This document shows positions 246-56,000 of a stretch of DNA of 64,000 bases, piece after piece; position 1 is the first letter of the stretch; every line of letters begins with the position of its first letter. A program made the position numbers and the translations under genes. A model generated the notes under the pieces. The model had not been told where the DNA came from and ran no database searches. It worked only from the letters and a program-made list of their open reading frames with translations. Source of the stretch: Chiloscyllium plagiosum (taxonomy: Eukaryota); contig NC_057718.1 in the NCBI RefSeq assembly GCF_004010195.1, positions 89,605,800 to 89,669,799 on the forward strand. Direction: 5' to 3'.

Positions 246-1495
246 ATGCTGACTATAATCCCAAACTAAACTACTCCCACCTGCCTCCTCCTGGCCCATA
301 TCCCTCCAAACCTTTCCCATTCATGTACTTACCCAAATGTCTTTTAAATGTTCTCAGTGTGCCTGCATCCACCACTTTCTCTGGAAGTTTATTCCACACA
401 CTCTGTGTGAAAATGTTGCCCCTCATGACTTCTTAAAATCTTTCTCCTCTCACCTTAAAAATGCACCTTTTAGTCTTGATATCCCCCACTCTAGGGAAAA
501 GGTACCTGCCATTCACCTTATCTATGCCCCTCATGATTTTATAAACCTCTATAAGGTCACTCCTCAATGTCCTACGCTCCAGTGAAAATAGTCCCAGTCT
601 TTCTTTACAACTCAAACCTTCCATACCCAGCAACATCCTGGTAAATCTCTTCTGAACCCTCTCCATGATGTGGAGGTGCTGGTGTTGGACTGGGGTGGAC
701 AAGGTCAGAAGTCACGCGGCACCAGGTTATAGTCCAACAGGTTTATTTGAAATCACAGGCTTTCGGAGCGCTGCTCACTCATTGGGTGAAGTGGAGGGAA
801 GCACACAGGCATAGAATTTATAGGCAGAGAGATCAAAAGATCTGAGTGGAGTGTCCACAGGCTGAATAATAAGCAGGTGATCAAGAGTGCCAGACAGTGT
901 GAGTAAAGAGTGAACAGCTAAATAGCAGGTGAAGGCATGACCTATAATCCAATTAATTGAGGCCTCAACGTGTAACCCCACCACATTGTCCTGTATCTGT
1001 AAAATCTCCTTACAATCCTGTTTTGATACCATCACCTTGCTAACTTGTTATAATCTCTCTACCTTAATTATTTTGTACAGTTTTGGATTACTCATTCCTT
1101 TGGTCAGGCCCTCGGCATGCAACTCTTACACCTGTCATGTTATTCCAGCCATTTGGTTTGTCTCCAGCACCACCTTATTTTTAATTATCTCTCTGCCTCG
1201 ATTAGTCAGATTATGGGTCATCCTTTCGCTTGCTAATCAGCTGTTGACACTTTACTCACACTGTCTGACACTTCATCATCTGCAACAGACTCATTATTCA
1301 GCCTGTTGACACTTTACACACACCATTTTGATCTCTCCGCCTATAAATTCTGTGCCTGTGTGTTCCTGTTCACTCTCCTGATGAAGGAGCACCACTCCAG
1401 AACCCTCTCCAGCTTAATAACATCCTTCCTATAACAAGGTGACCAGAACATCCTTCCTATAACAAGGTGACCAGAACTGGACACAATACTCCAAG
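245..1495 (-). mobile_element. CR1/HER1-like LINE 3' fragment (interrupted at 666-1399)
   Basis: [47 protein letters not shown]1 ORF2 C-terminus. Confidence 0.88.
666..1399. mobile_element. PLE-derived insertion with inverted ends, inserted into a CR1; 12-bp TSD GAACCCTCTCCA
   Basis: TSD at 654-665 and 1400-1411; CR1 sequence resumes after it; CTGATGAAGGAGC hammerhead-type remnant near 1378. Confidence 0.75.
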
Positions 1496-1970: not shown

Positions 1971-2079
1971 CTTCAGAACTGACTGCAACTCTCCGTACTT
2001 TCTGGGATTGGAGGCGTCATTCCGGATCTCCATCAGCTGCTTATTCTTTGTCAGAAGCCATTTTGATTGTTCGGAATAT
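1971..2079 (-). CDS. SYNE1: nesprin-1-like exon: (R)[36 protein letters not shown]
   Basis: 109 nt, ttgcag|A...AAG|gtttgt; completes the AG|A Arg codon of exon 6343-6560; aligns without gaps to the recalled human FSEFSSWISTNETQLKGIKGEAIDTANHGEVKRAVE. Confidence 0.85.
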
Positions 2080-5000
2080 CTGCAAAAGGACGAGAGGGAG
2101 TGTTTTCACACACACAGACGTAGAACAGAATAGTGAAGAAACCGGCCCTTCAGCACAACAAATCCACACCGACCCTCCAAAGAGTATCCCACCCAGACCC
2201 ATTCCCCTATCACTCTACATTTACCCCTGACTAATGCACCTAACCTACACATCCCTGGACACTATGGGTAATTTAGCCTGGCCAAGTCACCTGACTTACA
2301 TATCTTTGGATTATGGGAGGAAACACCCACAGACACAGGGAGAATGTGCAAACTCCACACAGGCAGTTGCCCAAGGCTGGAATCGAACCCAGGTCCCTGG
2401 TGCAGTGAGGCAGCAGTGCTAACCACTGAGCCACTGTGCCGCCCGTTAAACCATGGTGAATGTGGGAATACGGGTATAAGTTGGGATGCTCTTCGAAGGG
2501 TCAGTGCAGACTCAATGGGCCGAATGGCCTCTGTGCACTGCAGGGATACTGTATGGGACAGTCCTTGTACCTGTCTTTCCCGGTCTCCCTCTTGAAGAGT
2601 TCGTCGAAGTGCACCATCTTCTGCCGTGTGATGGTGTGCAGTTTGAGGCGGGGCCGAAGACGGTGCAGGAGCTGCAGGTGGTTATAGAGCCGACCCTTGC
2701 CGTCTCTCCTCATGCAGCTGCTGGGTCCCCAGAAGATGAAGATCGGGTCGCGGCTGGCGTTGAGGAGCTCGCTCCCTTTCTGCAGCAGCCGCTGGATGCT
2801 GGAGTGCGCGACCACCCGCAGGCTGGTCCTGCGGCCCACATCCTCCTGGTAACCCCGTGTCGGGGCGTCGTTCATCCTGATGACGCACTCGGCGCGGTCG
2901 ATCTCTGCTCCCCGCCCGCTCCCGATGAGTTGCCCAGAGCTGGTGACCAGAGCGCAGTCCTTACAGTGGACCTGCAGAGCCTGAAACAACAACAGCAACA
3001 AAACCAGGCCTCAGTCAATCCTTTGCTGAAACAATGAAGGCAGGAGAGCGCCCAAAATACTCCACATGACACTCCCTACTCAGGGGTCACCTGGGAAGGC
3101 AAAGAGTATCCCACCCAGACCCATTCCCCTATCACTCTACATTTACCCCTGACTAATGCACCTAACCTACACATCCCTGGACACTATGGGTAATTTAGCC
3201 TGGCCAAGTCACCTGACTTACATATCTTTGGATTATGGGAGGAAACACCCACAGACACAGGGAGAATGTGCAAACTCCACACAGGCAGTTGCCCAAGGCT
3301 GGAATCGAACCCAGGTCCCTGGTGCTGTGAGGCAGCAGTGCTCACCACTAAGCCACCACACCAACACTTAAAATGCGAAGTACTTCTTGAGGCAGAGCCT
3401 GAATCATCTGTCTAACAACAGCATTGGGTGTGTATTCTGGGAAAACGTATGAGAGGACACATGCAAATATCCTGAAAAGGAATGGGCACACAGCTCCAGT
3501 AGAAGAGCCACCACAGGTATGATTGGTCAAATGGCCTCCTCCAGAGCTGCTGGGTTTCCAAACTGCCCCAAGCTCTCGGTGAGTTCCTGCCTAACATTGT
3601 TTCATCCCCTCCACACCTCTATCTCAAGCAATGCCTCGTGCTTAGGCCTTTCATCCACTCCTGAATTCCTCCTGTCGTCTCTCCTCCAAATTCCCCAAAT
3701 TGTCACTCAACCTCACGTTCACATTAACTCTCCAGAGAGTACACGACCTCCACTTTGCCAAGACCCAGAGCCTCCCTCTCTCTCTCGGATGCCAATCCAG
3801 AGTGGCCCTTCCTGGTTCACCCTCACCATCCACATCGGCCTTTGGGAATCTCTCTCTCACTTGACCCCACGGAAGAATCCCCCAAACTCAGAGGAGCAGA
3901 TGGAGAAGGAGCAGAAGGAGGACATTCAGCCCGTCGAGCCTGCTGCCTGATTCGATGAGATTGCAGTTGAGCTGATTGTAACCTCAAACCCATATTCCCA
4001 CCAAACCCTCTCACCCGGTGGGAAGAGTTAAACTTTGCAATGGTATTCCCCTGGCCAGAGTCATACGGAATGCAGCTACGTCTGGTTACCTTTCTTTCCC
4101 ACTCATCACATTCCCGATCCCAGGCAACTAGTTGGTCAATATGCACTTAGAGAGTCATAGAGTCACACAGCATGGAAACAGACCTCTCAGTCAATGCCGA
4201 ACATAATCCCAGTCTTCTGCCTCCTCACTCCTCATCAATTCCTCCACAGTCTCCAGTTCCAACCTCGTGCTTGATCTCATCACACCTGACAAGACACTTT
4301 ACCTAGTGATCCAGCATCAATCAGGCCTACCGTGAGCAACATGTCTCCAAATCCTCTCGCTATTCCGGAACCTTCTGACCTTCCCTGTCCCTTCGACCTC
4401 TGACCTTTCCCATCAGGGCTTCAGTCGTTTGGTGACTTCCAAAACCAAAACCGACCGCTCACTTGGATTCTACCCAACGTTCCACTGGAGGCCTGCTTGC
4501 ACTGGGAGACCTAGAACATTCCAAGCCGCTAACAACTGCATGGAGCACCAAGGTGGTTTTGAGCCTGGGAGGGGGTCATGTTAATCCTCAGAAACAGGTG
4601 AGCTGAAGTTGAGCCAGATGCTAAATCTTCAGACATCTGAAACCTGACTCCAGCCGGCCCACATCCAGACTTAACACGCTAAACCACTCAGGATTGTGAA
4701 GTAAAAACCAGGTACCAAATTTTGGATTCATGCTACATTTACTTACCAGAACAAAACAATATAAATCTCAGCTTCCTGCCTAGCCAACCCTAAATGCCCC
4801 AGCATACTTACTTCATTCTCATCTTTTCTAATCAACCTGTCCACAGCATAGAATCCCTACAGTGTAGGAACAGGCCCTTCAGCCCAACAAGTCCACACTA
4901 ACCCTCCAAAGAGTAACCCACCCAGACCCATTCCCCTACATTTACCCCTAACAAAAGTACCTAACCTGCACATCCCTGAATACTACAGGCAATTTAGCAT

Positions 5001-8000
5001 GGCCATTTCACCTAACCTGCACATCTTTAGATACCTCTGGAGCAGGTGGGATTTGAACCTAGACCGTCTAGCCCAGAGGTAGGGACATTACCATTGTATG
5101 CAAGAATCCTTATGCCTTTGTCAGCTGTTCTGAAAGTGCTTAATCGATCAATAGCTGTCACCTTTTTTTAACAGTTTTTAACAGTTAAAAAAATTAACAA
5201 TTATTGACATTGGAAGTGTTAATATTTTAAAGTCTAGAACAGAGTAGGAGAAAGCTAAGGCCGTGAGGGCACTATCTGCTGGGCTTAAGTGGACAAGAAC
5301 ATTCAATCCTGGCCCTTTAGCTCCATCACATATGACAAAACCTTAGCCACTTCCCAGTATTCTCAAAGCTCCACCCCATCAGGGGTCACAGCACCTTCAG
5401 GGGTCGGGGATGGGGCATCTCCCACCTCCACAAGCATCCCCAGGTTCCTTCAGAGCAGTCTGGGCCTGTTCCAGAATCCTCCCCACCCGATTTTAAACCA
5501 ATCATGAAGTCTTCCCAGTGGGGATTACATTAAAATGAGAAAGCACTTTGAAACAGAGAAGGCTGAGGTGGGGTGGGGAGGGGAATTTCTGACTGAGGTG
5601 TATAAGATTATGAAGGGCCTGGACAGGGGTGGATAGAGAGCAGCTGTTTCCTTCAGTCAAAGGGTCAATAACAACTGGGCATAATCTTCGAAGCGTAAGA
5701 CAAGAAGTTTAGAGGGGGCGTGAGGAAAAACACCAAGGGTTGGCAGAGGTCTGGAATACAATACATGGGGAGTGCTGTTGAGGTGAGAATCCTCGTAACG
5801 TTTAGAAAGTCATTGGATGAGCACCTGAAGTCCATAACATTCAAGGCTATGGGCCTAGTACGGGTAACTGGGACTAGTGTAGACGGTAGTGGAAAAGTGT
5901 GGTGTTGGAAAAGCACAGCCGGTCAGGCAGCATCTGAGGAGCAGGAGAGTCACCATTTTGAGCATAAGCCCTTCATTAGACTTCCAGATGAAGAGCTTTT
6001 CTTGAAATGTTGACTCTCCTGCTCCTCAGATGCTGCCTGACCTGCTGTGCTTTTCCAGCGCCACACTCTTCAACTCTGTTTTCCAGCATCTGCACTCCTC
6101 ACTTTTTCCTAGTGTAGACAATAGTCTATGTTTGGCAGTACAGGCTAGATGGGCCGAAGAGCCTATTCAGTACGGTATGATTCTATGATTCAAAACTCCG
6201 CAGGACGTGGGGGACAGTGAACTTTGTACTTCCTGGATCAATCTTGTGAGAGACGGCTCCAGTTTGGCCAGGAGCCCACTCCTAAGCTACTTTGAGGGAA
6301 AGTTAATAAACCCCAGGTCACGGTATCACTCATCACTGTTACCTCGTCCTGTACTCCTTCCATTTGTCGGGCTGATCCAATATTTTCTGGTAGGTGGCAT
6401 CAATAAGTCCTTGCAATTCCCTCAGCGTCTTTTTGTCCATTTCGTGTTTTGTCCTGATCCCCTCGTACTTCCGAGATTCCGGCAGCTTCTGACAGAGGTC
6501 TCCGATCACCTTGCCCCGCTTCCTGCACCACTCGAACTTCCCAGTCTCGGAGAAAAACTCCTGAAAAGGGAAATCAGTCGTTGGTGGAGCCCATCAGTCA
6601 TGGTAAGAGGCTGAATGGGATCCCGAGGGACGTCTTCAAATCTGATTCCCCCCCCCCCCCCCAATCCGGGATCTCAAACCCGAGAAGGAGGAGCGCATGA
6701 GTCTAGGGCATGGCCACCGACATGGTGCCATCCAGATGGGAAGCCATATACACGCGCTGGGATAAAGGTGGGACTGGAGAAGCCTCAGAGAAAGGAATTG
6801 GAAAATTGTGCTGGCTAAGCAAATAATATAACATACCCTCGAATCCCTTCAACATGGAAGCAGGCCATTCAGCCCAATCCACACTAACCCTCCAAAGAGC
6901 ATCCCAACCCCCTTTCCCTCCAACCCTGCATGTCCCATGGCTAACCCACCTAGCCTGCACATTATGGGGCAATCTCACATGGCCAATCCCCCAAGCCTGT
7001 ACATCTTTGGACTGTGGGAGGAAACCAGAGCACACCCGACACAGAGAACATGCAAACACCACACAGACAGTTGCCCAAGAGTGGAATCAAACCCAGGTCC
7101 CTGACACTGTGAGGCAGCAGCGCTAATCACTGAGCCATTATGCTGCACCATACCAGTGATGGAATAATGATTTCATTTATTACTGTCACATGTACTGAGA
7201 TACAGTGAAAGGTATTGCCGTGCATGCTAGCTGGACAAATCATACCATACATAAGTCTATCAGGATGAAGGGTGTGTGGAACTCTGGAACCTCACAGAGG
7301 TAAAGTAGACTGTGTAACCAGTGTTGTAAAGGAAAAATAAATAGTAATTCTTGAAGTGCAAATATCGAGCTCATTCCCAGCACATCTTAAAGGGAAACCA
7401 ACAATGTAACTGAGCATTAATCATAAAATAAGTCTGTCTTGAGAGTCAGGATTGTAAAGAAAAATGGGCGGGGACTCAATTCAGAATGAAAATACAGGAT
7501 GATAAACGATCTGGGTAAAATTAGAGGAGATGGCCACTCTGTCCTTAACTGAGTATGAACATGGCTGCCGATGCTCCACCAAGTGGCCGCCTAGTGGAAC
7601 CACATGACCTGATGGTGCCAAGGCTGAGGGCCATGTCATAGAGTCACAGAGATGTATAGCACAGAAACAGACCCTTCGGTCCAACCCGTCCATGCCGACC
7701 AGATATCCCAATCCAATCTAGTCCCACCTGCCAGCACCCAACCCATATCCCTCCAAACCCTTCCTATTCATATACCCATCCAAATGCCTCTTAAATGTTG
7801 CAATTGTAAAAAAGATAGCCGTCCTTGGGTGGGCTCAAACCACCAGCCTTTCAGTTAATAGCCAAACGCACTAACTGATTGCACAACTGTGATTTGGGCA
7901 AATTCAGTGTTCGCAAAATAAGTATGAAATTCATCTGTGACATCATGCAAAATGAAACCATTTAATCTATATAAATCAATGTTGAAATGGCACACTCATT

Positions 8001-11000
8001 TATAAGTGCAAAATGATGCATTTTGTTTGGAAGATAACAAAAGTCACTAAGTCTGCAGGAAGAATGAGTCTAAATGGGGTGCAAGAGCAAAGATGTATAA
8101 GATATCCTAACTCACAAATCATGAAAGGTAGTTACAGATGCTAACAAGGTCATAAACCAAAATAGAATTTGCACTGCAGTTCATTTCTATAGAGAGATTC
8201 ATAGAATCCCTACAGCTCAGAAAGAGGCCATTTGGCCCACTGAGTCAGTAATAACCCTCCAAAGAACATCCCAATCAGAATCAACAACCATTCCACTCCT
8301 GTATTTCCCATGGCTAATCCACCAAAGCTCGTGGACAATTCTGGTCTCCTTCCTATCGGAAAGATGTTGTGAAACTTGAAAGGGTTCAGAAAAGANNNNN
8401 NNNNNNNNNNNNNNNNNNNNNNNNNNNNNNNNNNNNNNNNNNNNNNNNNNNNNNNNNNNNNNNNNNNNNNNNNNNNNNNNNNNNNNNNNNAACATTTAAA
8501 AGGCATCTGGATGGGTATATGAATAGGAAGGGTTTGGAGGGATATGGGCCGAGTGGTGACAGGTGGGACTAGATTGGGTTGGGATATCTGGTCGGCATGG
8601 ACAGGTTGGACCGAAGGGTCTGTTTCCGTGCTGTACATCTCTATGACTCTATGCAGGGGGAAAGCTACACAGACATAGGGAGAACACAAAAACAGTCACC
8701 TCGGAGTGGAATTGAACCTGGATCCTTGAGGCAGCAGTGCTAAATACCGAGCCACCATGCTACCCAGGAGCAGGCCTCCATCTGGGTTGAGACCACGTGG
8801 GCAACTGGATTTGAAGAACTCTCGGGGTATGTTATATTTATACGTGGCTTGGTTTGATCGCAACTTTGGTCTCCACGTTACATAAAAGGATCTAGAGGGA
8901 CTGGAGAAAATTGCTGGCATCCCACACATGTATAAAACAAACGGAGGCCACTCTGTCGCTCGTCAAGTCCTGTCTGGAGACAAGCCAGCAAGTGACCACA
9001 CTCAGTGCTTACCTTGTGTTGTACAATAAGCTCTTCACTGTTGGTGCTGGTTAAGAGCTTGTTCTCCTTTTCCAGTTGTAGTTTACATTCCTCCATCATC
9101 TCCACCAGCTTATTTCTGGCTGCTTCAATCTGGAGGCGGAGCAAGTGGTAGGGGGCTTCAGCCTGAAGGTCCTGAAATAATCCAAGCAGCATCGTGAAAA
9201 TCAAAAGCCAAGGTTTGGAAAGGTATACTGGCGATCACTCGAGACCAGCTCTTCCTGTCACACCATGGGCTTGAGCCACCTCAGGCAGGCTTTACAAACG
9301 TCCGGTGGAATGCAATCCTGGGATTCCCACCCCTTGTCAGCGACTTTGATCCGTAGTGGAATAAGGGTCTCGGTTATCAGCCTGCTTCTGCTGCCCCAAT
9401 CTTGCAAGTTCCAATCTGGGAGTGGGCTTTTCAGATCGTCCCTAATACCACAGAGTGGCACCTCAAGGCAGTGTGCTTTACCCCAGCTCAGGGGCGGGGC
9501 AGGGGCGAACCATGATTAGAGATGGGAAGCGTTTGAGAGTTAAGCTCAAAAGGGGTTGCCAACTTCGTGTGTCGTGTCGGAAGACTATGTGGTAAGGGCT
9601 TCGTTTTGAAAAGGTAAGTGACCATTAAATCAAACAGAATTGTGACACATACATTAGAATTCATCATCCCGCTAGATAAAGTACTACTCTGCACCATACA
9701 ACATTGGAATCAAAATCTGACCATGTAAATTACAGAGGAACCTCGATTATCCGGCATTCAATTATCCAAATTTTGGATTATCTGAACAAGATCGCAAGGT
9801 CCTGATGCTTGGTTAAACTGTGTTACCTGGCATTTGGTTATCCAAACAAAATACTCCCAACCCGTGTCGCTCAGGTAATCGAGGTTCCTCTGTATTGGCT
9901 CAGCCATCTGTTTGGCTGTTTCAAAGCTCCAACAGATGGCTCAGTTTCTGACTGACCTCAAAGGTTTTAATGTATTCGCCTCTAGATGCTTTGTTGACCA
10001 AGTTGATCAATGGGATATCATTATGAATGCTTGCCTGAATTCCAAACTTATTAATGGATTCTGACAGGGTCTATAGGCTTGGATCTAGTGGTAGATTTAT
10101 GAACCATTAAAAGGATTATGTTTTGCAAGTAGATCATGTTGTACTGTTTGATTGCTTTAGCTGATTTATATAGTGGACAGAAATGAATCCTAGAGGGGAC
10201 AAGGTGTCAATGATGGTTAGGGGGCCTCATATTCTGATTCAGAACCAGGCCAATGTCTCAGTACAAAAGGGTGGGCCATATGACCCTACCCTGTGCTCAA
10301 GGGGGTAAACACCACCAGTTGAGTGGCAGGATCATGCTATCAAGACATCTGACCCCTCCCCTGCTCCTGACAATTCCCAATTCCCAATTCCCGGATGAAA
10401 ATCTAGCCCAAGGCCTCAGGATCTTAGTGCTGAGGGACGCCAACTTGTAGATCCATATTATTCTATATTGACAATGACAGTCAGCCTTGCTGTACATTGT
10501 ATCCGTAAACTGAGGGATGCTGGGACTGAAACTCAGGGTTCCTTTAACATATAATACAAAAACCCCTTTAGACTTCAATCACTAACCTCATGCCCCCAAC
10601 ATTATTACCATGTTTACTGTGCAGAAACTCAGACAAAATGGGGTGGCACGGTGGCTCAGTGGTTAGCACTGCTACATCACAGCAGCCAGGACCCAGGTTT
10701 GGTTCCACCCTTGGGTGACTGCCTGTGTAGAGTTTTCATGTCCACCCTGTGTCTGCGTGGGTATCCCCCGGGTGCTCCGGTTTCCTCCTACAGTCCAAAG
10801 ATGTGCATGTTAGGTGGATTGGCCCTGCTAAATTGCCCATAATGCCCAGGAATGTGCAGGTTAGGTGGACTGGCTATGCTAAATTCCCCATAATGCCCAG
10901 GGATATGCAGGTTAGGTGGATTGGTTATGGGAAATGCAGGGTTATGGGGTAGGGGATATATCTGGGTGAGATGCTCTTCGGAGGGTCGGTGTGGACTCGA

Positions 11001-14000
11001 TGGGCTGAACAGTCTACTTCCACACTGTAGAGATTCTATAAATAAAAGCCTAATCGAACATCAGTCTTTATTTTTGAAGGGGCCTGAGTCCAAAAGGGGG
11101 TGAAGGGGTGCTTCAGAATCTCCACGAGTCCAAAAGGGGGTGAAGGGGTGCTTCAGAATCTCCACGAGTTTTGAGAAGATTTGTGGCTCACGTTGAGGTT
11201 CTGGATGTAGGTTTGTTCGCTGAGCTGGAAGGTTCATTTCCAGACATTTCGTCACCCTACTAGGTAACATCTTCAGTGGGCCTCCGGGCAAAGCACTGTT
11301 CATGATTCCTGCTTTCTATTTATATGTTTGGGTTTCTTTGGGTTGATGATGTCATTTCCTGTGGTGATGTCATTTCCTGTTCCTTTTCTCAATCTATCAA
11401 CAAACACACCGAGTTAGACCCCATCTAGCACCCCGTTAGAGTCTAACTCAGTGTGTTTGTTGATAGATTGAGAAAAAGAACAGGAAATGACATCACCACA
11501 GGAAATGAAATCACCAACCCAAAGAAATCCAAACATATAAATAGAAAGCAGGAATCATGAACAGTGCTTCGACCAGAGGACCACTGAAAATGTTACCCAG
11601 TTGGGTGACGAAACGTCTGGAAATGAACCTTCCAGCTTAGCGAACAAACCTACATCCAGTTTCAGTATCTCGCTTCAACCCTTGGTCAGAGTCAATTTGA
11701 GCACAGTATTTAGTTCTGGACAAAGTTGGGTTGCGAGGTTTATGAAATTTAAAAGTATTTGATATCAGTTCCTGAGCCCTGGTGAGTCAGCCGTGATCTA
11801 AGTGAAGGAGGCCTGAGTGGCTAATTGAGCTTCCTGGTGTTCCTGATGTCTCCAGTCCCATTACCTATTCCCCCATCCCACAGTATTCCCGAGTTTCTGC
11901 AGCACTGACCTTCCACTGCTTGTGCAGACTGCGGACAGTATCCTGCAGGCCTTGCTGCTCCTGTTCAGGGAGGATGTCAGTCAGCTCATCGCAAGCCTTC
12001 AGAAAAGCATTCAATGTTCTCTGATCTAGCTGGCCAAAGAACTCCTGGGAGGAAGCAATTAGACCATGAATAAGATTAACCATCATCAACTAATGTATGT
12101 CTCAGCACTGTAAATCCACCTAATAAAAACTGAAAGAACTGCAGATACCGTAAATCAGAAACAGAAGTTGCTGGAAAAGCTTGGCAGATTTGGCAGCATC
12201 TGTGAAGAGAAATCAGAGTTAACGTTTCGGATTCAGTGACCTGTTCTGAGGGGGTGAACCTGAAACGTTAACTCTGATTTCTCTTCACAGATGCTGCCAG
12301 GCCTGCTGAGCTTTTCCAGCAACTTCTGTTTTCATTTGTGGTTGCCAATCCACCAACTGGCTCTCATATACTCCGCCCCGGAGGCTCTCAGCCTCATTCC
12401 TGAGGAAGGGCTCCTGCCCAAAACGTCGATTTTCCTGCTTCTCGGATGCCACCTGACCTGCTGTGCTTTTCCAGCACCGCTCTAATCTTGACTCTGATCT
12501 CCAGCATCTGCAGTCCTCACTTTTGCCTCATGTACTCTATGCCAAGCACAAATTTAATTCTCAATCAATTAATAGATTTACAGGATAAGTTTATTTCAGC
12601 AGAATACAGCATAACCTGGAGCAGATGGACTGCAGCAGGTGGAGAAGGGATGGACACAAAAATTGTCCCATATCCTGTGAAACATTTTTTTTTAAAAAAA
12701 CCTCTAATAGCTCTTCCTCAACGGCACCATGATTTTTCCCAGGGACCAAATTCCATCCCAGATCCATGCTGAGTAAACTGGTCATCACCAGGATGGGGTT
12801 ACTTACAAAGTGCCCTCAGCAACCCTGGATAGGTTCTGTTATGAGTTCTGACAAAGGGTCACTGGACACGAAACGTTAACTCCTTTTCTCTCTCCACAGA
12901 TGCTGCCACGCCTGCTGAGTTTCTCCAACACCTGCTGTTTTTGTTTGCGGTTACATTGGGATGGTTTGGGTTGATAGCTTCAGCCAGGGCTTTGGTGGGG
13001 GCACTGGGACTCATCCCAGCATCCCAGAGAGTAGGGTGAGACTTGTCAGTGAAGGACAGAATGAAAGAGAGAGTGTGAGAAAGAGAGTAAGGGGGACAAA
13101 CAGAGAGAGACAAAGTTCGTGGGTGAGTGTTTGAGTGAATGAGTGAGACTGAATAGTGAATGGGTGTATGAGTGTGCATGTGTGTGTGTGAATGAGTGAG
13201 ACTGAACTGGAGTGTGTGTTGTGTGTGTGTCAGTCTGTCTGTATGTCTATGAATAAGAATGCATATTTGTAACGGTGTGCGTGTGTGTCATCGTGTATGT
13301 GCGTAAACCACGAAACTATCATTAATTTTGATAAAGGATCTGGTTCACTCGGGTCCTTTAAGGGAAGGATATCAGCTGTCCTTACCCAGTCTGGTCGACA
13401 CACCTTTCCAGATCCACAGTGATTTGGCTGATTTCTAACTGCCCTGTGAAAAGCTAGTTCAGTTCAAGGGCAATGAGGAAAGGGCACCAAATACAGGCTT
13501 GCCAGCAATGCCCACAATCACAGGAAAGAATTGACCCAAAGCTCAATTTAATTTGCAAACGGGTCCATTCAAATAATTCTCAGGAATGTCTGGTCCATAC
13601 AAACCTAACGAGTTGCGATTTCAGCACCACCTTTTAGTTCCCCATATGTGCTTGTGTTCATACATCTGCTTCTGTGTGCGGGTTTATCACATTACTGCAC
13701 CTATCCCTCCGGTAGGATGTTACCGAATAATGTGTACATGGGAAATTTAACAGTAGTCGCATGACTCATGGGTGTGTGCGTGTGCTTATATGTGTGTGTG
13801 AGAGTGAGAGTGTGTGTGTGTATATGTATGTGACTCATGGGTGTGTGTGTGCATATATGTGTGTGTGTGAGTGTGTGTGTGAGAGTGTGTGTGTATATGT
13901 GTGTGTGAGTGTGTGTGTATGTGTGTGTGAGTGTGTGTGTAAAACAGCAGATAAAAACAGGAGCAGGCTTTATGGGCCAGTTAAATTTTTACCATTCATT

Positions 14001-17000: not shown

Positions 17001-20000
17001 ATTGCTTATAGTTCTGGTTACCACATTATAGGAGGGATGTGGAAGCTTTGGAAAGAGTTCAGAGGAGATTTACTAGAGATGTCGCCTGCTCTGTAGGGAA
17101 GGTCTTATGAGGAAAGGCTGAGGAACTTGCGGCTGTTTTCATTAGAGAGAAGAAGTTTGAGAGGTGACTAAATCGAGACATAGAAGATAATCAGAGGGTT
17201 AGATGGGATCGACAGTGAGAGCCTTTTTCCTTGGATAGTGATGGCTAGCATGAGGGGACACAGCTTTAAATTGAGGAGTGATAGATATAGGACAAATGTC
17301 AGAGGTAGTTTCTTTGTTCAGAGAGTATTAGGGACATGGAACACACTGCCTGCAACAGTAGTCGACTCACCAACCTTAAGGCATTTAAATGGTCACTAGA
17401 TAGTTATATGGACGAAAATGAAACAGAATAGGTTAGACAGGCTTCAGATTGGTTTCACAGGTAGGCGCAGCATTGAGGGCCGAAGGGCCTGTACTGCACT
17501 GTGTTATGAAGATGTGGGTGTACTTTAAGAGAGTTAAAAGTAGCAGAACTACCGGACACAGCACCCAAGTGTTCTCAATAAGGTAACAATGTAACACTTG
17601 GTCGAACAACTTGATTAGCTCATTGTTTGGAGACAAAAACAAAGTTGAATTTGGCGAATCAGTTTCAATTCTACCCCGAAAAATATCAAGCTCCAATCCA
17701 GTTTGAATTGAGTATACTGACAATCTTAAAAGCCAATGACACCATCTGATGCTTTGAGGGTAAAAGACCAGAGAAAATTGAACAGTTGAGAGGAGATCTG
17801 CCAAACCCTGCAAGTAAACAGACTGCTTGAAAAATAGCTGTCTTAAAAGTACCTTTTCGATCAGTAATCTGTGACACAGAAATTCCGAAGAAGAAGAAAA
17901 GAAGACACAGAAAGATTGGAATAGAAGAACGAAAGCTGCCTGGTTTGGAGATAAGAAGGGTGGCTTTGTAAATCTGAACTGGGAGTTTTATCGGACTAGT
18001 ATTATTGAAGGAAAGTTCAAAGATAGGTTAGAGGAAGAAATTGTAAATAGTGGTTAGTTAATTATTCTCTGTTATACTTTAAGAAATAAAGTTGTTAATT
18101 TTTACTTTAAATAGTTCTTGGCCACTCGGAGTTTTACAGATTACTGCATGGAACAAATCTTTTCTGTATTGCTGGTTTTAAATTAAGCAGGAGGGTTTAC
18201 CACGTATCATAACAGCTGTAATGTTCTATGTTCTACTGAAATATTTAAGAACAATAAGTGATGGAAGGAAATGTGGAGCATAGGGACATGGGAAAGTGGG
18301 ATTAGGATAGTGTGCCTATGAAGGATGGACTAGAGACAAGCCAGAGGTGCTGTAATTTCTGTATAATTCACTGAACCCTTACACTTGATATGCAGCATCT
18401 ACCTTTACTGCTCACTGGCAACTGGGTTCACCTCTGTGATAGGTTTTACTACACTGATAAGAATCCCCACTTTCTCTCTGTGTCTGTGAGGCCAGATGAC
18501 ACAAATTAACATCTGCAAGGGTGATAGGGCCCTCCTGTGGTGCAGTGGTAGTGTCCCTACCCCTGAACCAGGCAGCCTCGGTTCAAGTTCCATGTGCTCC
18601 AAAGGTGCACAAAAACATCTCTGAACAAGTTGAATGAGAAAAATAGGCTTAATAATAAAACAAAGCTCCCTGTGTTGAGAGTAGTCTTACCATCACTCTC
18701 AGTGGATGAAGCTCTATGCCAGAGATAAATGCTAATTGATTAAAATAGCTGCCCTAAATTATAAACCTTACACAGGTAAAGAATGCATTTTTTCCAGGCT
18801 GATACTTGAGCTGGAATTTTATATTAGGTATATCAAGGAGGACAACCATTTCATAAGCCGTAGTGTCGCAACCCAATCCCAGATGTAATGTCCTTGAAAT
18901 GAGTTCTAGCCTACCTGGTCTACTGTAGATAAGGTTAGATAGTAGATAAAGATACCTGCACAGTTCATTTCAGCCTGCCCATTTTAATTGATAATTTCTT
19001 CTGAATCAAGTATTAGCAGCTAAAATTAATCAATTTAAAACAGTCACTAAGAGAGAGGCTAGGGATCATTTTGACACTTCGCTGGTGCACAATATGGCTT
19101 CCACCTCAATATGGCTTCCACCTGGGAGCATTTGACAGAAAGAGCATTGTGCCTGTGATGGAAAATTTGGGAAATGTATTCTGGCAGAGAAAGACACAAC
19201 GCTATGGTGAAAACGCAAGGGAGAGAGTTCACTTTTAAATTGATACAAGGATCTGGGGAGAGATTGGGGCAGTGGGGTTAGTTTTAGATTGACTCAGAGC
19301 TCTGGGGAGAGATTGGGGCTGTGGGATTAGTTTGAGATTGGTACAGGGCTACAGGGAGAGATTGGGGCAGTGGGGTTAGTTTTAGATTGACTCAGGGCTG
19401 TGGGGAGAGTTTGGGGCTGTGGGATTAGTTTGAGATTGGTACAGGGCTACGGGGAGACATTGGGGCAGTGGGGTTAGTTTTAGATTAGTTTGGGGCTGTG
19501 GGATTAGTTTGAGATTGGTACAGGGCTACGGGGAGAGTTTGGGGCTGTGGGACTAATTTGGTTGCTTGAACAAAGCTGACACAGAGACAATGGAACACAT
19601 GGCCTCTGAGCTATAAATGTGCTCTGATTCCAAACTTGCAAGCATTCCCCTTCACAGTGAGTAACACTGAGTAAACACTTGCTTCTCTGTCCAATGGGTT
19701 TAGGGTTCCAGTTGGAGAGCAGTGTAAATGAAGGTTTGAAGACCGGTTCAGTTCGCAGTAATGGAGAGTCACCTGGAATGCTGCCTGAATATGAAGGATT
19801 TTCTTCTGAAGAATGGAGAAATCCAAGTGCCGCAGGACTTTGCTGTCACTCAGCAGGCTCTGAACGACTTGCATGTTCCTCTCTGCCGCAATCGCTGCTT
19901 GTTTGCAATCCTCCTGGCAATCTGCCAATTCCTGTATTGGGGGAAAAGGAGCAAGGGTTTTAGTTCCAAGACACCATCGTCAAACCCTGCTGCCCTCCGG

Positions 20001-23000
20001 TGGGATTGGCACCAACCTGGTGTCTCGCCTTGAAACCGGCTACGGAGTGACCCTCAGCTTCCCCCGGGGAGGTAATTTGATTGGCATGATTCAACGACTC
20101 AAAGAAAGCTGTGATTTCCTTCTCCAGTTCATCCAGGGGACTCAGCAACTGCTGAGCTTCCAGGAGCAAACACTGACAGCGCTCCCGAACCTATAGAGAA
20201 GGGCAGACATTAACATCAGACAGTGAGAGACACACCGAGTGTGACTTATTCAACATCAAGTCACTTTCTCAACATTTGTATTGGAACAGACATTTTCAAC
20301 ACCAACCTCTTAAAAGTTTGATTTGGAGTTTTAACCACTGAGGGAGTGCTGCACTATCTAGGGGTCAGTACTGAGGGAGTGCTGCACTGTCATCAGGTCA
20401 GTACTGAGGGAGTGCTGCAGTGTCGTCGGGTCAGTACTGAGGGAGTGCTACACTGTCGTCGGGTCAGTACTGAGGGAGTGCTGCACTGTCGTCGGGTCAG
20501 TACTGAGGGAGCGCTCTATTGTCATAGGGTCAGCACTGAGGGAGTGCTGCACTGTTGGAGGGTCAGTACTGAGGGAGTGCTGCACTATCAGAGGATCAGT
20601 ACTGAGGGAGTGCTGCACTATAAGAGGGTCAGTACTGAGGGAGTGCTGCACTATAAGAGGGTCAGTACTGAAGGAGTGCTGCACTGTCAGAGGGTTAGTA
20701 CTGAGGGAGCGCTCCATTGTCAGAGGGTCAGTACTGACGGAGTGCTGCACTATCAGAGGGTCAGTACTGAGGGAGTGCTGCACTGTCAGAAAGTCAGGAC
20801 TAATGGAGTGCTGCACTTTCAGAGGGTCAGTACTTAGGGAGTGCTGCACTGTCGAAGGGACAGTACTGAGGGAGTGCTGCACTGTCACAGAGTCAGTACT
20901 GAGGGTGTGCTGCACTGTCACAGGGTCAGTACTGACAGAGTGCCGCACTGTCAGAAGGTTAGTAGTGAGGGAGTGCAACACTGTCGGAGAGTCAGTTCTG
21001 TGGGAGTGCCACACTGTCAGAGAGTCGATACTGAGGGAGCACTGCACTGTCACAGGGTCAGTACTGAGGGAGTGCTGCACTGTCGGAGAGTCAGTACTGA
21101 GGGAGTGTTGCAATGTCACAGAGACAGCATTGAGTGAGTGCTGCACTATTGGAAGGTCAGTACTGAGTGAGTGCTGCACTGTTGGAGGATCAGTACTGAG
21201 GGAGTGCTGCACTGTCAAAGGGTCAGCACTGAGGGAGTGCTGCACTGTCAAAGAGTCAGTACTGAGGGAATAATGCACTCTCGGAGGGTCAGTACTGAGG
21301 GAGTGCTGCACTGTCAAAGGGTCAGCACTGAGGGAGTGCTGCACTGTCAAAGGGTCAGTACTGAGGGAGTGTTGCACTGTCAAAGGGTCAGTACTGAGGG
21401 AGTGCTGCACTGTTGGATGGTTAGTACTGAGGAAGCAATGCACTGGTAAAAGTGTTGTATCTCAGGTGAGAATACAAAGGGTATATAATCCCTTTATCCA
21501 GGTGGAAGATTAAGACACTATTGTACTGTAAGAGGAAGCCATTTTCCTAGAATTGTGGCCTACATTTATCCCTCATCCAAACACAGAGAACCATCTTACT
21601 TTTCGTTTGTGGGAACTGGATCCTGTGTTGACCTGCTTGAGACAATATGATGTGAAGACAATAAACTACATCAGAACAAATGCTTATTCACCCCTGGGGG
21701 TGGGGAATGAGTTTCACCATTTAACACCATCTGGATAGGTACAAAAGCAAATCAAAGAAAGATTTTTAAATTATGCAGATTAAACTTTTCAAGAGGGGGC
21801 AATGGAAAACTACAAAAGTGAAAAAACCAGAACAAAAAGTCACAATTGCAGTTTAAAATACCTTTAACCGTGAGGGTAAACCCACCTCCTGAGAAGGGGT
21901 GGGGCATTGGAGACGAGGGGACAACTCTGTGGAACAGGGTTTTAGAACAAGGTTCCTTCTGACTGGAATTCCCTGGGGGATGTGGGACTGGTGAATGTAT
22001 CCATTATTGAATAATGTCGAACTGTCGAACTTGTATGATATGACTGACGATAAAGCTCAATTCTCTCAGTCTCACATCCCTTTCTGTAGGGAGCTCAGAG
22101 TGACTGAGAAGGTACAGGGCTAGGACAGTTTAATACTGTTCTGTTTATCATTCGCTGTCTCCGCAAAACTCTTCAGCTTGTCCACTTCATCCCCCTGCGA
22201 GTACTGCCTGAGGCAGAGAACCTGGCATGGACCACTCTACAGGTTGTTCTGTTATAATGCGACAGTTCTGTTTTTCTGCGGCCCCAGTACTATTGAAAAT
22301 CACGACTACGGAAAACCGTGACAGAAAATCGCACTGCAGAGAATTGTTAAGAAAAAAAATCACTTCAGTAGAAAGGTTGCACTATCCAAACAACGTCCAC
22401 AATTCGTCAATTGTGTTCCAGCCAATTTGCGCTGACGAAACGCACGTTACAGCAGAACGGCCTGTACTCGCACTGGACAAAATGAACCACGGTGCTCAGA
22501 ATGGTTCACCCTGGTCAGGTGGACACATGATTCATCGGACACCCATTGACCATCGCTGACCAGAAGGCCACACTGGTCAGATTGAGCACACAATTGGTCT
22601 TCTTCAGACTGGTCTAACTGTTTCACTCCTACCCTGAGGCACATGTTAATTGCTGAGTCCTGATTAAAACTCTCCCATTTACTCAGAACTCTGAGCTTCC
22701 CTCATTCTGAGGCTGATCCTTACTTTTATCAGCTGATCCTTAATGGTGGACATCGTGGACAGCATCTGTGTTACTTCATCCTGCGGGGTGTCCTTTGTTA
22801 ACTGCTGAGCTGTCTTGGAAACCAGTTTGTACTGAGCTTCCATTATTGGCACCTTTTGTTTTATAACCTGCACAGGACACCAGAAAAACAAACATCAGCT
22901 CGTAACAATCGTACATCCAGCAACCAGCACTTTAAAACTAACGTCAAGGAAGAAAGACCTTTTAGAGACACCTGCCTTTATACATCAATGGATCAAAGTG

Positions 23001-26000
23001 GCTCCATTTACTGTGCAATTCAGGTAAACAGTGTTAGCACTACTTGTGATTTAATTTCAATTTACTCACAGGGTGAGGGCATCACTGGCGAGGCTAGTAT
23101 TTATGACCCATTCCTAATTGCCCAGAGGGCAGTTAGGAGTCAACCACATTGCTATGTGTCTGGAATCACATGTAGGCCCGACCAGGTAAAGATGGCAGAT
23201 TTCTTTCCCAAAAGAATATTAGTTAACCGGATGGGCTTTTCCAGCAATTGACAATGGCTTCATGATCAGCATTAGATCCTTAATTCCAGATTCCTTATTG
23301 AATTCAAATTCTGCCACATGCAATGGCAGGATTTGAATCTGGGTCCCCAGAACATTAGCAGAGCTTCTGGATTAATAGACTAGCAATAGTATCACTAGGC
23401 CACCACCTCCCGATAATATATTCAAACCCATTCATCAATGATAAATAAAAATCACAAGGTCTTTCAAGACCTGCACCAAACAGGCATACAGTCTGCCAAC
23501 ATTGGCTTTTTCTGAATCTGTTTTCTGTCCATCTTGGGTGTTAGTTTTATGACTACTCACATCCCCACTGCACGTACACATGCAAATGCAATGAGACATT
23601 TGTAAATGTGCACGTAGTACAAGTACTCAAAGACACACATGCACAATGCAGTGATTGTAACGAGGTCAGCCAGCTGGCTCGCATTGGATATGAGTTCCCT
23701 GACTGGGGCTGTTAGCCTGGTCCAATCTGGGAGCACTGGCTGACAGATTAAAAAGGGGAGTGGTTAAGTCCGACTGCCTGCCCCTCTTCCATGGTTACGT
23801 TAGAGCCCGGGTGTCCTTGGAGAAGGAGCACGCGGTATCCACCAATACCCTGGAGTTGTTCAGGGAGAGGTGGGTGCCGCAGGGAGTGGAGTGCATTATT
23901 TCCCTCTCCAACTCTATTTTGATTTAATCCCTGCCCTCCCCTTCACTGTTTGATCACACAGCACTGCCCTTTGATGTGAAGGGCACTGCTTGTCACTGGC
24001 CACTCGGGTGTTTTCCAATCTTCCTGGTGGTGGAAATTGAATAAAGATTTGTGCACCTTGTGTCTTTCACTGTGTCTCACACCTGCACACACACAACATG
24101 GGTGCTGGGGAAAAAATAAAAAGGGGAGTGTCAGAGATGCTGACACTGTGATAGCTGGCTCTGAATGAGGCCGTATTAAAGTTTGTGTGTGAGTAAGTGG
24201 AGACTTGGTGACAGGATACCAGCCTCTATGGGGAGTTATTTCACAGGCACACATTCTTCAAATATGTCAGTTAAGGAGAGAAACATTTCACATGTGGGTC
24301 TCTTTGCTATTTTGCTTTTAAGGAATATTCCTGCTGAATCTCTCCTTATGTGCTATTTACTTGAAATTTTTACCTCAATATTCTGGATGCAACCGTCCAC
24401 ACGAAATAAAATTGCATCTAACAGTTACTTCAGAATATATACTCAACAGCTTGACTCCACCCAGGGCAATGCAGCTCACTTGATCAGCACCACAGCCATA
24501 AACATCCACCCCCTCCACCACCAACACTCAGTAGTAGCAGTGTGTACCACGTACCAGATGTACTGCAGAAACTCACCAAGGTTCCTTCCACAGCACCTTC
24601 CACTTCGACATAGAAAGGCAAGGGCAGCAGGTAGATGGGAACACCAGTAATTACAAGCTCCCCTCCACAATGCTCACCATCCTGACTTGAAAATATACCG
24701 CTGCTCTTCAGTGTCACTGGAAATGCCCCCTGTAATGGCGTTGTGGATCTACCTAAAGCACATAGACTGCAGAGGTTCAAGAAGGCAGCTCACCAACACC
24801 TTCACAAGGGCAACTAGGGACAGGCAATAAATGCTGGGCCCAGCCAGCGATGCCCACGTTGTCTGAATGAATTATAAAAAAGTTGTTTCTCTTTCTCCGT
24901 CTCTCTAACTCTTACTTCAATTGGTCACAACAAATGTCAATCATCCACTCTCACCTGAAAGTGCTCCTGGGTTAGATTTCCAGCAGGGGTTGGGTATTAA
25001 GCTGACATTGCGGAGCATGCCAACTGCAATCCAGTGTTATACCCAGGTGCCACGTCTGCCCCACACGTACGTACCTCCATATCTTGCACGTAAGTCTTGA
25101 TATTGAGAAAAGACACATCGACTGGTGAGTTCTGTTTCTCATTCGCTGTCTCCACGAAACTCTTCAGAGCCGATACTCCGTCCAGATACTCCTTCTTCAG
25201 CTTGTCCACTTCATCCGCCCGGGCGTACTGCAACGGGGACATGACACAGTTAGCTCAGAGGTTGGAAGGCAATCATACCCTCCACTAATAGAGTTGGGAA
25301 GAGTATCACCCCCTAACCCAGCTGGCTCCAAGCTTACTTCACAATACAACCCCATTCATCTCCAAATACCCAGAAATAATGTTTCTGTCTCCTCCTTATA
25401 CTTCAATACAAGCTGCTGGAAGACACAGGTTCCACACAGGAAATTTGCGTCCCTTAGTCGTGGGGGCAAGAACCAGGAGAGACAGACTCAAAATAAGGGT
25501 CAGGTTGATTGGCGATAAGGAGGAATTTGTTCATTCAGAGGCCGGTGAGTCTTTGGAAATATAAACAGAAAATTCAGCAGGTCTGGCAGCGTCTGCCGAG
25601 AGAAACCAGAGTTAACGTTCTGAGGAAGGGTCACTGGACCCAGACGTTAATTCGGATTTCTCTCCACAGATGCTGCCGGACCTGCTGAGCTTTTCCAGCA
25701 ATTTCTGATTTCGTTTCTGATTTACAGCATCCGCAATTCTTTCAGGTTTTACTTGGTAAATCTTTGGAGTTTTCTACGCTCGAGTGTCGGGAGAGCTCAA
25801 TCATTGACTACGTTCCAGACAAGGATTGATAGATTTCGCGAGACTGAACCTATCAAGGGATAGTGTTGGAAAATGACACTGAGATAGAAAACCAGACATG
25901 ATCTAATTGAAGGGTGGAGCAGGTTTGAGGGGCTGAATGGCCTCTTCCTGGAGCTATTTCCTGGAAGATATTTTCCTAATCAATCTGGTCAGAGATGTTA

Positions 26001-53000: not shown

Positions 53001-56000
53001 TGTTCATAGAGTCATAGAGATGTACAGCACGGAAACAGACCCTTCGGTCCAACCTGTCCATGCCGACCAGATATCCCAACCCAATCTAGTCCCACCTGCC
53101 AGCACCCAGCCCATATCCCTCCAAACCCTTCCTATTCATATACCCATCCAAATGCCTCTTAAATGTTGTAATTGTACCAGCCTCCACCACTTCCTCTGGC
53201 AGCTCATCCCATACAGATACCACCCTCTGCGTTAAAAAGTTGCCCCTTAGGTCTCTTTTATATCTTCCCCTCTCACCCTAAAGCTATGCCCTCTAGTTCT
53301 GGAGTCCCCGACCCCAGGGAAAAGACTTTGTCCAATTATCCTATCCATGCCCCTCATGATTTTGTAAACCTCGATAAGGTCACCCCTCAGCCTCCGACAC
53401 TCCAGGGAAAACAACCCCAGCCTGTTCTTGGGCCAAAGGGCCTGTTTCCACACTGTAGGGAATCTAATCTAATCTAGAAAGCCCCAGTGTGGAAGAAGCA
53501 TCAATCCTTCCCTTAGTCCAATACATTCTAAAGTAGTCACAGTCTTCAAAGCCCCAGCTGGGAACTACCTAAGGTCAAGTAGTGCAGAAAACCTAAAGGT
53601 CAAGGGGCTGGGAAGCTGGGGATAGAATCCGCCCCAGTGATGCAGTCACATAAATATGTAGAATAGTTCATGGATTTCAGGATTCAGGTGTAAGCAGAGG
53701 TGGCTCAAGTGGAACAACCACAATCTGCTATTTTCAAATTAATGTATTTATAAATCAGCAACCAATTCTGCGACCACTACTCCAAACCAGGCCTGGAACA
53801 TTCAGAAATACAGTCAGAGTACAGTAAAATTTGAGCTATAGGGAGAGATTGAATGCGCGAGGGCTGTTTTCCCTGAGTGCTGGAGGCTGAGGGGTGACAT
53901 TACAGAGGTTTATAAAATCATGAGGGGCATGGATAGGGTAAATAGACAAGGTCTTTTCCCTGGGGTGGGGGAGTCCAGAACGAGAGGGCATAGGTCTAGA
54001 GTGAGAAGGGAAAGATATAAAAATGACCTAAGGGGCAGCTTTTTCACGCAGAGGATGGTGCGTGTATGGAATGAGCTGCCAGAGGAAGTGGTGGAGGCTG
54101 GTACAATTGCAACATTTCAAAGGCATCTGGATGGGTATATGAATAGGAAGGGTTTGGAGGAATATGGGCCAAGTGCTGACAAATGGGACTAGATTGGGTT
54201 GACATGGACAAGTTGGACCGAAGGGTTTGTTTCCATGCTGTACATCTATATGACTCTATGACTGTAAGTAGATTGTCTACAGTGAAGAGACTGGGAAGAG
54301 ATTAAGGAACACAGGACTTGAGTAGTTCTGAGAAAATGCGCACTTACAATGCATGAAGGAAGAGCACTGATTGGTTGGCAATTAGAGTCCAGGGGTATTC
54401 TTGCAAATTGGCCTGATGAGCTCAAGGTAAAAAGCTTTGATAAAGTGTGCACTTTCTCAGAAATAGAATAGATGCAAATATATAGACTCATTAAAGGGAG
54501 ATTAACCAATTTTAGTTGGGATGCATTGATTTAATGTTAGATTAAGTGGACATTATTAAAAATATAACCACAGTTATTTCCATTCCAAAGGATGCTGCTT
54601 TTTGAAAACTCTATGAAATGCTGATATGTTCTCTTTGGCATTTGGAAATTAGTTTCTCAAGAAACTGTTCAGTTAGTTTGCTTTGGGAAAACCCGTGTAT
54701 GAATCTCCATGAATAATTTGCTGATTGTCTCATTCTTGGAAATTATTTGATGAAAAGTACTTTCAAAATATAAGCACAATTTAAAATCCTACGTAGCTGT
54801 AGATATTGTTTACTATTACAATAGCTTTTCTTTGTATCAAATGATGATTTAAGAAAGCAGAGTTTTCAAAAAAAGAAAACAAAAAAATTAAAAATGCAAC
54901 CATAAGAAGTCCTCAGGGTCTTTTAATATGGTTTTAGCATTAGCAGTATCTGGCACATTAGCAATGTGCTAAAGGAGATATATATTCCTGTATTCCTGAT
55001 GAAGGGCTTCTGCCCGAAACGTCGATTTTACTGCTCATCGGATGCTGCCTGAACTGCTGTGCTTTTCCAGCACCACTCTAATCTAGACTAAAGGAGTTTT
55101 ATGGCTATATACACATTATTGTCATGTTCACAGGATGTAAGTCAGAGATTCCCTACATTGTGAAAGTAAGCCAATCAAACTGACAAACTGAAGAGTATCC
55201 CGCCCAGCCCCCTACCCTATATTTACCATTTCCTGAAGAAGGGCTCATGCCCGAAACGTCGATTCTCCTGCTCCTTGGATGCTGCCTGACCTGCTGCGCT
55301 TTTCCAGCAACACATTTTCAGCTCTGATCTCCAGCATCTGCAGTCCTCACTTTCTCCTATATTTACCATGGCCAATCCACCTAAACTGCACACCTTTGGA
55401 CTGTGGGAGGAAACCGGAGCACTCGGAGGAAACCCACGCAGACACGGGGAGAATGTGCAAACCCCATACAGACAGTCGCCTGTGGCTGGAATTGAACCCA
55501 GGTCCCAAGGGGTGTCAGTGCCAAACACTGAGCCACCGTGACACCCTAAATGGCTGTGTTTATTATCTCATCAACCTGTAAGTGGAGAGAAGATATTTCC
55601 ACTTGGACATAACACCAACCTGAGCCAAACAGCCTGTTTCTGTGCTGTAAATTCAAAAACACTGTATGATAAATCTGACAGTATAAACGTGTACCAGAAT
55701 CGAGGTAGTCCTGAATGTACGGGGCAGCCAAGCACATCAGAGAAGTCCCAAGTTCAAAGTGAGGGTTCACATACTGCTCTGAGGGATGAGAGAGGTTTAC
55801 CTGCCTGCCTTAGCCACGGTAGGTACTGCTGGCTGAGACTGAACCTTCAATGACGTTCCTGAATTTGAAGAAATTCTCCATCAACAGGCATCTCAGAAAC
55901 AGCCTGCCCTTCGAATGCATCTATCTCACACCCTCATGAGAACCCAGATCACTTTCCAGCAATTAATTATTCTTTGAAACGTTGGCATGATTTCACAAAT

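What the first reader, a model, noticed from the sequence alone, without database searches (positions are those of the whole stretch)
1971..9171. The foreign exon is phase-matched to its nesprin neighbour: in-frame swap or poison exon
Seen: nesprin exon 6343-6560 (218 nt) and the sialyltransferase exon (410 nt) both start in phase 0 and both end in a split Arg codon (AG|). Splicing exon 9013-9171 to 2571-2980 to 1971-2079 gives a continuous frame ...[14 protein letters not shown]...[13 protein letters not shown]..., a nesprin carrying a sialylmotif-L module in place of part of a spectrin repeat. Including both exons shifts the frame to [36 protein letters not shown] (stop at 2872-2874), giving NMD or a KASH-less truncation. 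Inference: either outcome would matter, but a partial GT29 fold in the cytosol is unlikely to be catalytic.
Basis: partly seen in the sequence, partly recalled or inferred. Interest (0 to 1): 0.7.

Follow-up and report, generated by a model that had tools for sequence, protein, structure and literature searches.

The report
Stray sialyltransferase exon in shark nesprin
An unchanged copy of one exon of a shark sugar-transferase gene sits between two near-identical repeat copies in an intron of the nesprin-1 gene; it is likely a recent DNA-repair patch or an assembly error, and its reading-frame match to the neighbouring exon is likely coincidence, not a designed swap.

Summary
Coordinates, phases and both translations are right. 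The 410-nt exon is a native ST6GALNAC5 exon: 136/136 residues match the Chiloscyllium plagiosum protein, and its 0/2 phase comes from that gene. No other ST6GALNAC5 exon is in the window. The unit is very young or not real. The phase match is unremarkable: 6 of 20 introns (24% of intron length) would give it, and 14 of 21 exons end in AG. The nesprin exon it would replace is present in 17 of 18 nesprin-1 proteins, and none carries sialyltransferase sequence. Best reading: a recent SINE-guided templated insertion, a passenger, poisonous if spliced in (0.5). Rivals: assembly artefact (0.35), regulated swap or poison exon (0.06). No read-level test of DNA or RNA junctions was obtained, so real versus artefact stays open. 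The scan noted similar exon patches elsewhere in this genome (unchecked notes).

The parts
9013..9171 (-). SYNE1 (nesprin-1) coding exon, phase 0/0, residues 976-1028 of P0121
6343..6560 (-). SYNE1 coding exon, 218 nt, phase 0/2, conserved in vertebrate nesprin-1
   Evidence: (72/72 identical to P0121)
3100..3368 (-). SINE copy A (HE1/V-SINE type; name recalled, family listed in PMC3747384): diverged head, then a 226-nt body that breaks off at 3100 without its tail
2981..3099 (-). 119 nt of unique intron sequence, inferred to come from ST6GALNAC5, with a branch-point candidate (A at -35) and a strong acceptor
2571..2980 (-). Copy of a native ST6GALNAC5 exon (third coding exon, inferred from isoforms), 410 nt, phase 0/2, sialylmotif L; 63% GC, 32 CpG; weak donor
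2872..2874 (-). TGA reached when both the 218-nt and the 410-nt exon are included; 301 nt upstream of the next junction
2446..2570 (-). 125 nt of downstream intron, inferred to come from ST6GALNAC5, holding an antisense repeat-tail fragment
2113..2445 (-). SINE copy B: near-consensus head, 226-nt body (2178-2403) identical to copy A, and tail
1971..2079 (-). SYNE1 coding exon, phase 2/0, residues 1102-1137 of P0121

Best explanation
A 410-nt ST6GALNAC5 exon with short intron flanks sits between two near-identical SINE copies in a SYNE1 intron, likely as a recent DNA-repair or replication patch copied from the ST6GALNAC5 gene, and it would act as an unregulated poison exon, not a swap, if ever spliced in. 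Inferred mechanism: synthesis left one SINE at position 3100, copied about 0.7 kb of the donor gene, and came back through SINE-SINE homology upstream of where it left, repeating 226-257 nt (a small 'cycle' of templated insertion). A variant is synthesis 1.25 times round a 922-nt circle. The phase match is inherited from the donor gene. The normal message likely joins 6343 to 2079. Any message with both exons meets a stop 301 nt before the next junction and is predicted to be degraded.
For: Shown: peptide 136/136 identical to C. plagiosum ST6GALNAC5 and 133/136 to C. punctatum, with 32 CpGs intact, so no decay. No other ST6GALNAC5 exon in 64 kb. Direct repeat 254/257 identical, all three mismatches in the SINE head. 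All 47 body columns that depart from the local consensus are shared by A and B, against 1-24 of 47 in 14 other copies, so the two bodies are one copy duplicated. No poly(A), poly(A) signal or short target-site duplication, which argues against retrotransposition. An older copy of part of another SYNE1 exon, about 90% identical, at 22138-22207 cannot be an assembly error and shows such copying occurs here. A 3.3-kb 98%-pure satellite is assembled without a gap, which suggests long-range data behind the assembly (inference). Known class: cycles re-replicate host sequence, and SINE-to-SINE junctions are enriched (PMC7025897, passages). Unchecked notes report real or polymorphic exon patches in this genome.
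Against: No read or contig evidence for either junction was obtained. Zero divergence fits an assembly error equally well. The donor locus was not available, so homology at the 3100 junction and retention of the donor copy in the same individual are untested. It is unresolved whether the shared body comes from the host or the donor SINE (Fisher p 0.06-0.39). The cited cycles are somatic events in human cancer, not germline events in fish. The window has a 95-N gap, so the assembly is not gap-free.
Confidence: 0.5

Rival explanations
1. The 922-nt unit is an assembly or gap-filling error: the path entered the ST6GALNAC5 locus through one SINE and came back through another, writing the SINE body twice; in the animal the intron is 3,341 nt and holds one SINE.
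For: Zero protein divergence from the native exon and 226/226 identical repeat bodies; both ends lie in the commonest repeat of the window (24 blastn hits); removing 922 nt restores one complete head-body-tail SINE; the window has an N gap; no swapped protein of 239-2000 aa turned up, though it would rank at the top.
Against: Inference: a k-mer path would need long exact matches to a SINE body full of private changes at both ends (47 columns); the 3100 junction leaves the SINE in mid-element into unique sequence, not into another SINE tail; an older diverged exon fragment in the same gene is real; other repeats in the window, including a 3.3-kb satellite, are assembled through.
Confidence: 0.35
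2. The insertion is real, fixed and exonised, and the cell uses it as a regulated poison exon or as an in-frame alternative to the 218-nt nesprin exon, with NMD removing double-inclusion messages.
For: Open frame in the swap and early stop in double inclusion; strong acceptor (only 3 of 21 SYNE1 acceptors score higher), branch-point candidate and GC-rich exon; NMD is a recognised way to enforce mutual exclusion (PMC6071210, passages); repeat arms could pair around the 218-nt exon (I3-I6).
Against: 24% prior for the phase match; exons unrelated, 3,362 nt apart, both with ordinary GT-AG sites; weak donor (20 of 21 SYNE1 donors score higher on a crude 21-site matrix); the 218-nt exon is present in 17 of 18 nesprin-1 proteins, none with sialyltransferase similarity at E<=1; too young for adaptation to show; the fragment lacks motifs S, III and VS and the L-S disulfide partner.
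Confidence: 0.06
3. ST6GALNAC5 pre-mRNA ending in a SINE tail was reverse-transcribed by the partner LINE and inserted, with a template jump producing the second SINE body.
For: The unit ends in a complete SINE tail in sense orientation; shark HE1 SINEs are paired with the HER1 LINE (table in PMC3747384); an unchecked note describes an intron retrocopy ending in a SINE tail 1.2 Mb away (e1-8021412). Head B is as close to the body in divergence as head A plus tail.
Against: No target-site duplication (longest shared word 4-5 nt), no A-tract; the two heads differ, so one template does not explain both copies.
Confidence: 0.06
4. This is the only copy of the exon, and ST6GALNAC5 is interleaved on the same strand with SYNE1, with its other exons outside the window.
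For: Protein identity of 100%; the genome could not be searched for a second copy.
Against: No other ST6GALNAC5 exon in 64 kb; does not explain the identical direct repeat; the two genes lie in different synteny blocks in other vertebrates (recalled, not tested).
Confidence: 0.03

Closest known systems
Cycles of templated insertions (Li et al. 2020, PMC7025897; passages read)
   Same: A distant template is copied in and the path returns to the host chromosome with a segment re-replicated; SINE-to-SINE junctions are enriched; the paper notes foreign exons inserted into RB1, presumably giving non-functional transcripts.
   Different: Described as somatic events in human cancers from read data; here a single sub-kilobase template in a reference assembly, with no read support obtained, and it is unresolved whether the duplicated segment is host or donor.
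Templated sequence insertion polymorphisms, class 1 and class 2 (Onozawa and Aplan 2016, PMC5110952; passages read)
   Same: Germline insertion of a short stretch copied from a distant locus, donor left intact.
   Different: No poly(A) tract or signal as in class 1; a 226-257-nt duplication, whereas class 2 has none; polymorphism not tested.
Mutually exclusive exons and NMD-coupled poison exons (PMC6071210; passages read)
   Same: Same phase pair as the neighbouring exon, and double inclusion gives a premature stop.
   Different: Not a tandem duplicate, long separating intron, no U2/U12 mix, no conservation seen, no inclusion shown.
ST6GALNAC5 of Chiloscyllium plagiosum (XP_043554618.1, P0001; GT29, PF00777)
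   Same: Residues 72-207 identical; same exon borders and phases.
   Different: Only this exon is present: no membrane anchor, no sialylmotifs S, III or VS.

Membership tests
Cycle of templated insertion | Foreign template flanked on both sides by the host locus in order | tested here: met
   21 SYNE1 exons give one open 3,153-nt frame across the insert; met in the assembly only
Cycle of templated insertion | Host segment re-replicated at the insertion | tested here: inconclusive
   A 226-257-nt duplication exists; host or donor origin unresolved
Cycle of templated insertion | Donor copy retained (copy-number gain) | tested here: inconclusive
   A complete ST6GALNAC5 with this exon is annotated for the species; no genome held for this window
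Cycle of templated insertion | Junctions supported by reads | not tested
   No read-level result was obtained
Class 1 TSIP / LINE-mediated retrocopy | Poly(A) tract after a cryptic signal, short target-site duplication | tested here: not met
   No AATAAA/ATTAAA, longest A run 4, longest shared flank word 4-5 nt
Class 2 TSIP | No duplication of flanking sequence | tested here: not met
   257-nt direct repeat
Class 2 TSIP | Microhomology or untemplated bases at the junctions | not testable with these tools
   Donor locus DNA not available
Mutually exclusive exon pair | Same reading-frame phases, either exon keeps the frame | tested here: met
   prior about 24%
Mutually exclusive exon pair | Homology from tandem exon duplication | tested here: not met
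   One exon is GT29, the other nesprin; no similarity between ST6GALNAC5 and 18 nesprins at E<=1
Mutually exclusive exon pair | Enforcing mechanism: very short intron, U2/U12 mix, RNA pairing or NMD | tested here: inconclusive
   Intron 3,362 nt and ordinary GT-AG sites rule out the first two; repeat-derived inverted arms exist but are generic; NMD is possible
Mutually exclusive exon pair | Both isoforms seen in RNA | not tested
   No read-level result was obtained
Regulated poison exon | Stop well upstream of a later exon junction | tested here: met
   301 nt; the 50-55-nt rule is recalled
Regulated poison exon | Conservation of the exon at this place in other species | tested here: inconclusive
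   No trace in 18 nesprin proteins, but a poison exon would not appear in proteins; orthologous introns not available
GT29 sialyltransferase enzyme | Sialylmotifs L, S, III and VS with catalytic His; type II membrane anchor | tested here: not met
   The exon covers P0001 72-207 (motif L, 77-125); anchor 8-27, S 213-240, III 253-256 and VS 279-285 lie outside (definitions from PMC10225777)

The most novel reading that the evidence does not exclude
A complete, splice-ready exon of a Golgi sialyltransferase was copied by SINE-guided repair into nesprin-1 after the C. plagiosum / C. punctatum split, is fixed, and is already used: as an NMD switch on CH-bearing nesprin-1 messages, or in frame in place of a conserved spectrin-region exon. 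That would be exon shuffling between unrelated genes caught at birth.
Probability: 0.06. Interest if true: 0.65.

Novelty: new member of a known kind. Interest (0 to 1): 0.2.

Why it matters
If real, it is a natural, very young case of a whole foreign exon with working splice signals landing in sense orientation in an essential gene, so one PCR and one RNA-seq count would show whether such a patch is ignored, poisons the message or is swapped in. It would also add to signs that SINE-guided templated copying moves exons in shark genomes. If it is an assembly error, it matters only as a warning for annotation of this locus. The phase match alone carries little information.

Tried and rejected
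No whole genome is held for this window, so the donor locus could not be read. The run search listed 24 runs: no listed holder is on record as RNA, and shares were 0.26-0.80 for 15 DNA-like rows and 0.05-0.12 for 5 possible RNA rows. Earlier-finding look-ups near the site, by the ST6GALNAC5 protein and by gene words found nothing; a look-up for misassembly notes gave nothing relevant among 8 shown of 54. The full-library phmmer with a nesprin stretch (54 hits) gave no other close shark nesprin. Fused proteins were searched only at 239-2000 aa from the sialyltransferase side (120 of 671 listed) and at 2553-5000 aa from the nesprin side, so full-length giant isoforms were not seen. Paper searches for ST6GALNAC5 + shark (8 listed), SYNE1 + ST6GALNAC5 + exon (5 listed) and TSI + DSB + TSD showed no report of this insertion, judged from listings only. 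Assigning the shared SINE body to host or donor by divergence was inconclusive. Pfam hits on long ORFs elsewhere in the window were weak repeat-derived noise or absent. No structure prediction was run: the missing motifs already answer the catalysis question.
Full report
Observation. The 218-nt and the 410-nt exon both run from phase 0 to phase 2. The swap gives an open frame. Double inclusion reaches TGA at 2872-2874, 301 nt before the next junction.

What the two genes are. The host is SYNE1 (nesprin-1). Twenty-one exons from 62803 to 1971 give one open frame of 1,051 residues, 98% identical to Hemiscyllium nesprin-1-like P0121 and about 61% to two mammalian and one teleost nesprin-1, against 32-35% to two more distant unnamed relatives. 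The foreign exon is GT29. It is identical in 136 of 136 residues to Chiloscyllium plagiosum ST6GALNAC5 and in 133 of 136 to C. punctatum. tblastn with five shark or ray ST6GALNAC5 proteins finds no other exon of that gene in the 64 kb.

The phase match is inherited and common. I compared 29 chosen ST6GALNAC5 proteins (all shark and ray hits plus a few bony vertebrates, not all 120 listed). In 7 of them an unrelated upstream sequence joins at exactly the first codon of this exon. All 29 end it with ETGKD-R, and 6 diverge or skip right after that Arg. So the borders and the 0/2 phase are those of the donor gene. In the host, 6 of 20 introns and 24% of intron bases adjoin a 0/2 exon, and 14 of 21 exons end in AG, which is simply the donor-site consensus. 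A random landing in sense orientation would give the 'match' about one time in four.

The exon lies in a 922-nt unit bounded by a direct repeat, 2178-2434 and 3100-3356, 254 of 257 identical. The three mismatches are all in the SINE head; 226 nt are identical, which bounds divergence at about 1.3%. Fourteen other copies of this SINE in the window are 68-86% identical to it and share 1-24 of the 47 columns where it departs from the local consensus; copy A shares all 47. The next most similar repeat pairs in the window are 96% over 163-173 nt, so young repeats exist but none matches perfectly. Copy A stops in mid-element at 3100 and runs into 119 nt of unique sequence, the exon, 125 nt more, and copy B with a different head and a full tail. 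Removing 922 nt leaves one ordinary SINE in a 3,341-nt intron. There is no poly(A), no signal and no short target-site duplication. Divergence from consensus is 8/41 for head A, 2/41 for head B, 22/207 for the body and 9/50 for the tail; this leans slightly to a donor origin of the body but is not significant (p 0.06-0.39). The SINE name HE1 is recalled; PMC3747384 lists HE1/HER1 for sharks in a table (passages), and I did not compare sequences with it.

How it most likely arose (inferred). Synthesis left a SINE, copied about 0.7 kb of ST6GALNAC5, and returned by SINE homology upstream of the exit point; or it ran 1.25 times round a small circle. This is the layout that PMC7025897 calls a cycle of templated insertion, where a host segment is re-replicated and SINE junctions are enriched (passages). 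It fits neither class of PMC5110952 fully (passages). In favour of a real event: an older copy of part of the SYNE1 exon 25075-25227 lies at 22138-22207, with 34/38 and 36/39 matches and a 33-nt deletion; a 3.3-kb satellite is assembled without a gap; and unchecked notes describe other exon patches in this genome, two said to be real. I began at 65% artefact and end at about 50% real and 35% artefact; the earlier notes contributed to that shift and are not independent proof. No genome and no read-level result were available, so this question and all junction counts remain open. The run listing is not used as evidence.

What it would do. The acceptor is strong (3 of 21 host acceptors score higher) with a branch-point candidate at -35; the donor is weak (20 of 21 score higher; 11% of all GT sites on the strand score as well), on a crude matrix built from 21 sites. 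The default outcome of recognising an extra exon is double inclusion, hence a stop after about residue 1,136 and predicted NMD (rule recalled). KASH-less CH-bearing nesprin-1 isoforms exist naturally (PMC3388047, passages), so an escaped product would not be a new kind of protein. A swap needs skipping of the 218-nt exon, which is present in 17 of 18 nesprin-1 proteins examined; the exception, a draft C. punctatum model, lacks about 164 residues there and has no sialyltransferase sequence either. Of the mechanisms for mutual exclusion listed in PMC6071210 (passages), a short intron and a U2/U12 mix do not apply, tandem duplication does not apply, and only NMD or generic repeat pairing remain. 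The swapped module has sialylmotif L only. The anchor, motifs S, III and VS with the catalytic His, and the second cysteine of the L-S disulfide are outside it (PMC10225777, passages). No swapped protein of 239-2000 aa appeared, but giant isoforms were outside the lengths searched.

Novelty. Searches showed no report of this insertion (listings only; supplements not read). The kind of event is known, and the scan has met it elsewhere in this genome. Verdict: observation confirmed, functional reading mostly unsupported, most likely a young passenger insertion or an assembly error. Interest 0.2.

Noticed in passing
window 22138-22207 (-): Older partial copy of the SYNE1 exon 25075-25227, starting at its acceptor, about 90% identical, with a 33-nt deletion between two 7-nt repeats; 3 kb downstream of its source, in a later intron.
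   Followed up: partly
window 31824-35105: Satellite of 143 copies of a 23-nt unit, 98% pure and assembled without a gap; it gives three spurious ORFs of over 1,000 codons.
   Followed up: partly
window 11201-11659: 459-nt self-inverted (fold-back) stretch, 91% identical, in the intron upstream of exon 9013-9171; possibly a retroelement end.
   Followed up: no
window 8396-8490: 95-N assembly gap next to a 163-nt repeat tail that is 93-96% identical to copies at 7637-7799 and 53005-53167.
   Followed up: no
window 20337-21432 and 49533-50511: Minisatellites of 33 nt x 33 and 52 nt x 19; the first gives a 337-codon ORF with only noise-level Pfam hits.
   Followed up: partly
window 1419-1477 and 11086-11169: Perfect two-copy tandem duplications of 28 and 40 nt: recent slippage or assembly overlaps.
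   Followed up: no
window 19773-20190, 30238-30636, 62430-62803: Three very short SYNE1 introns (85, 99 and 102 nt) in a gene whose other introns run to kilobases.
   Followed up: no
P0146 (C. punctatum draft nesprin-1 model): Lacks about 164 residues covering the 218-nt exon and the next exons; probably a draft-assembly gap, not tested.
   Followed up: no
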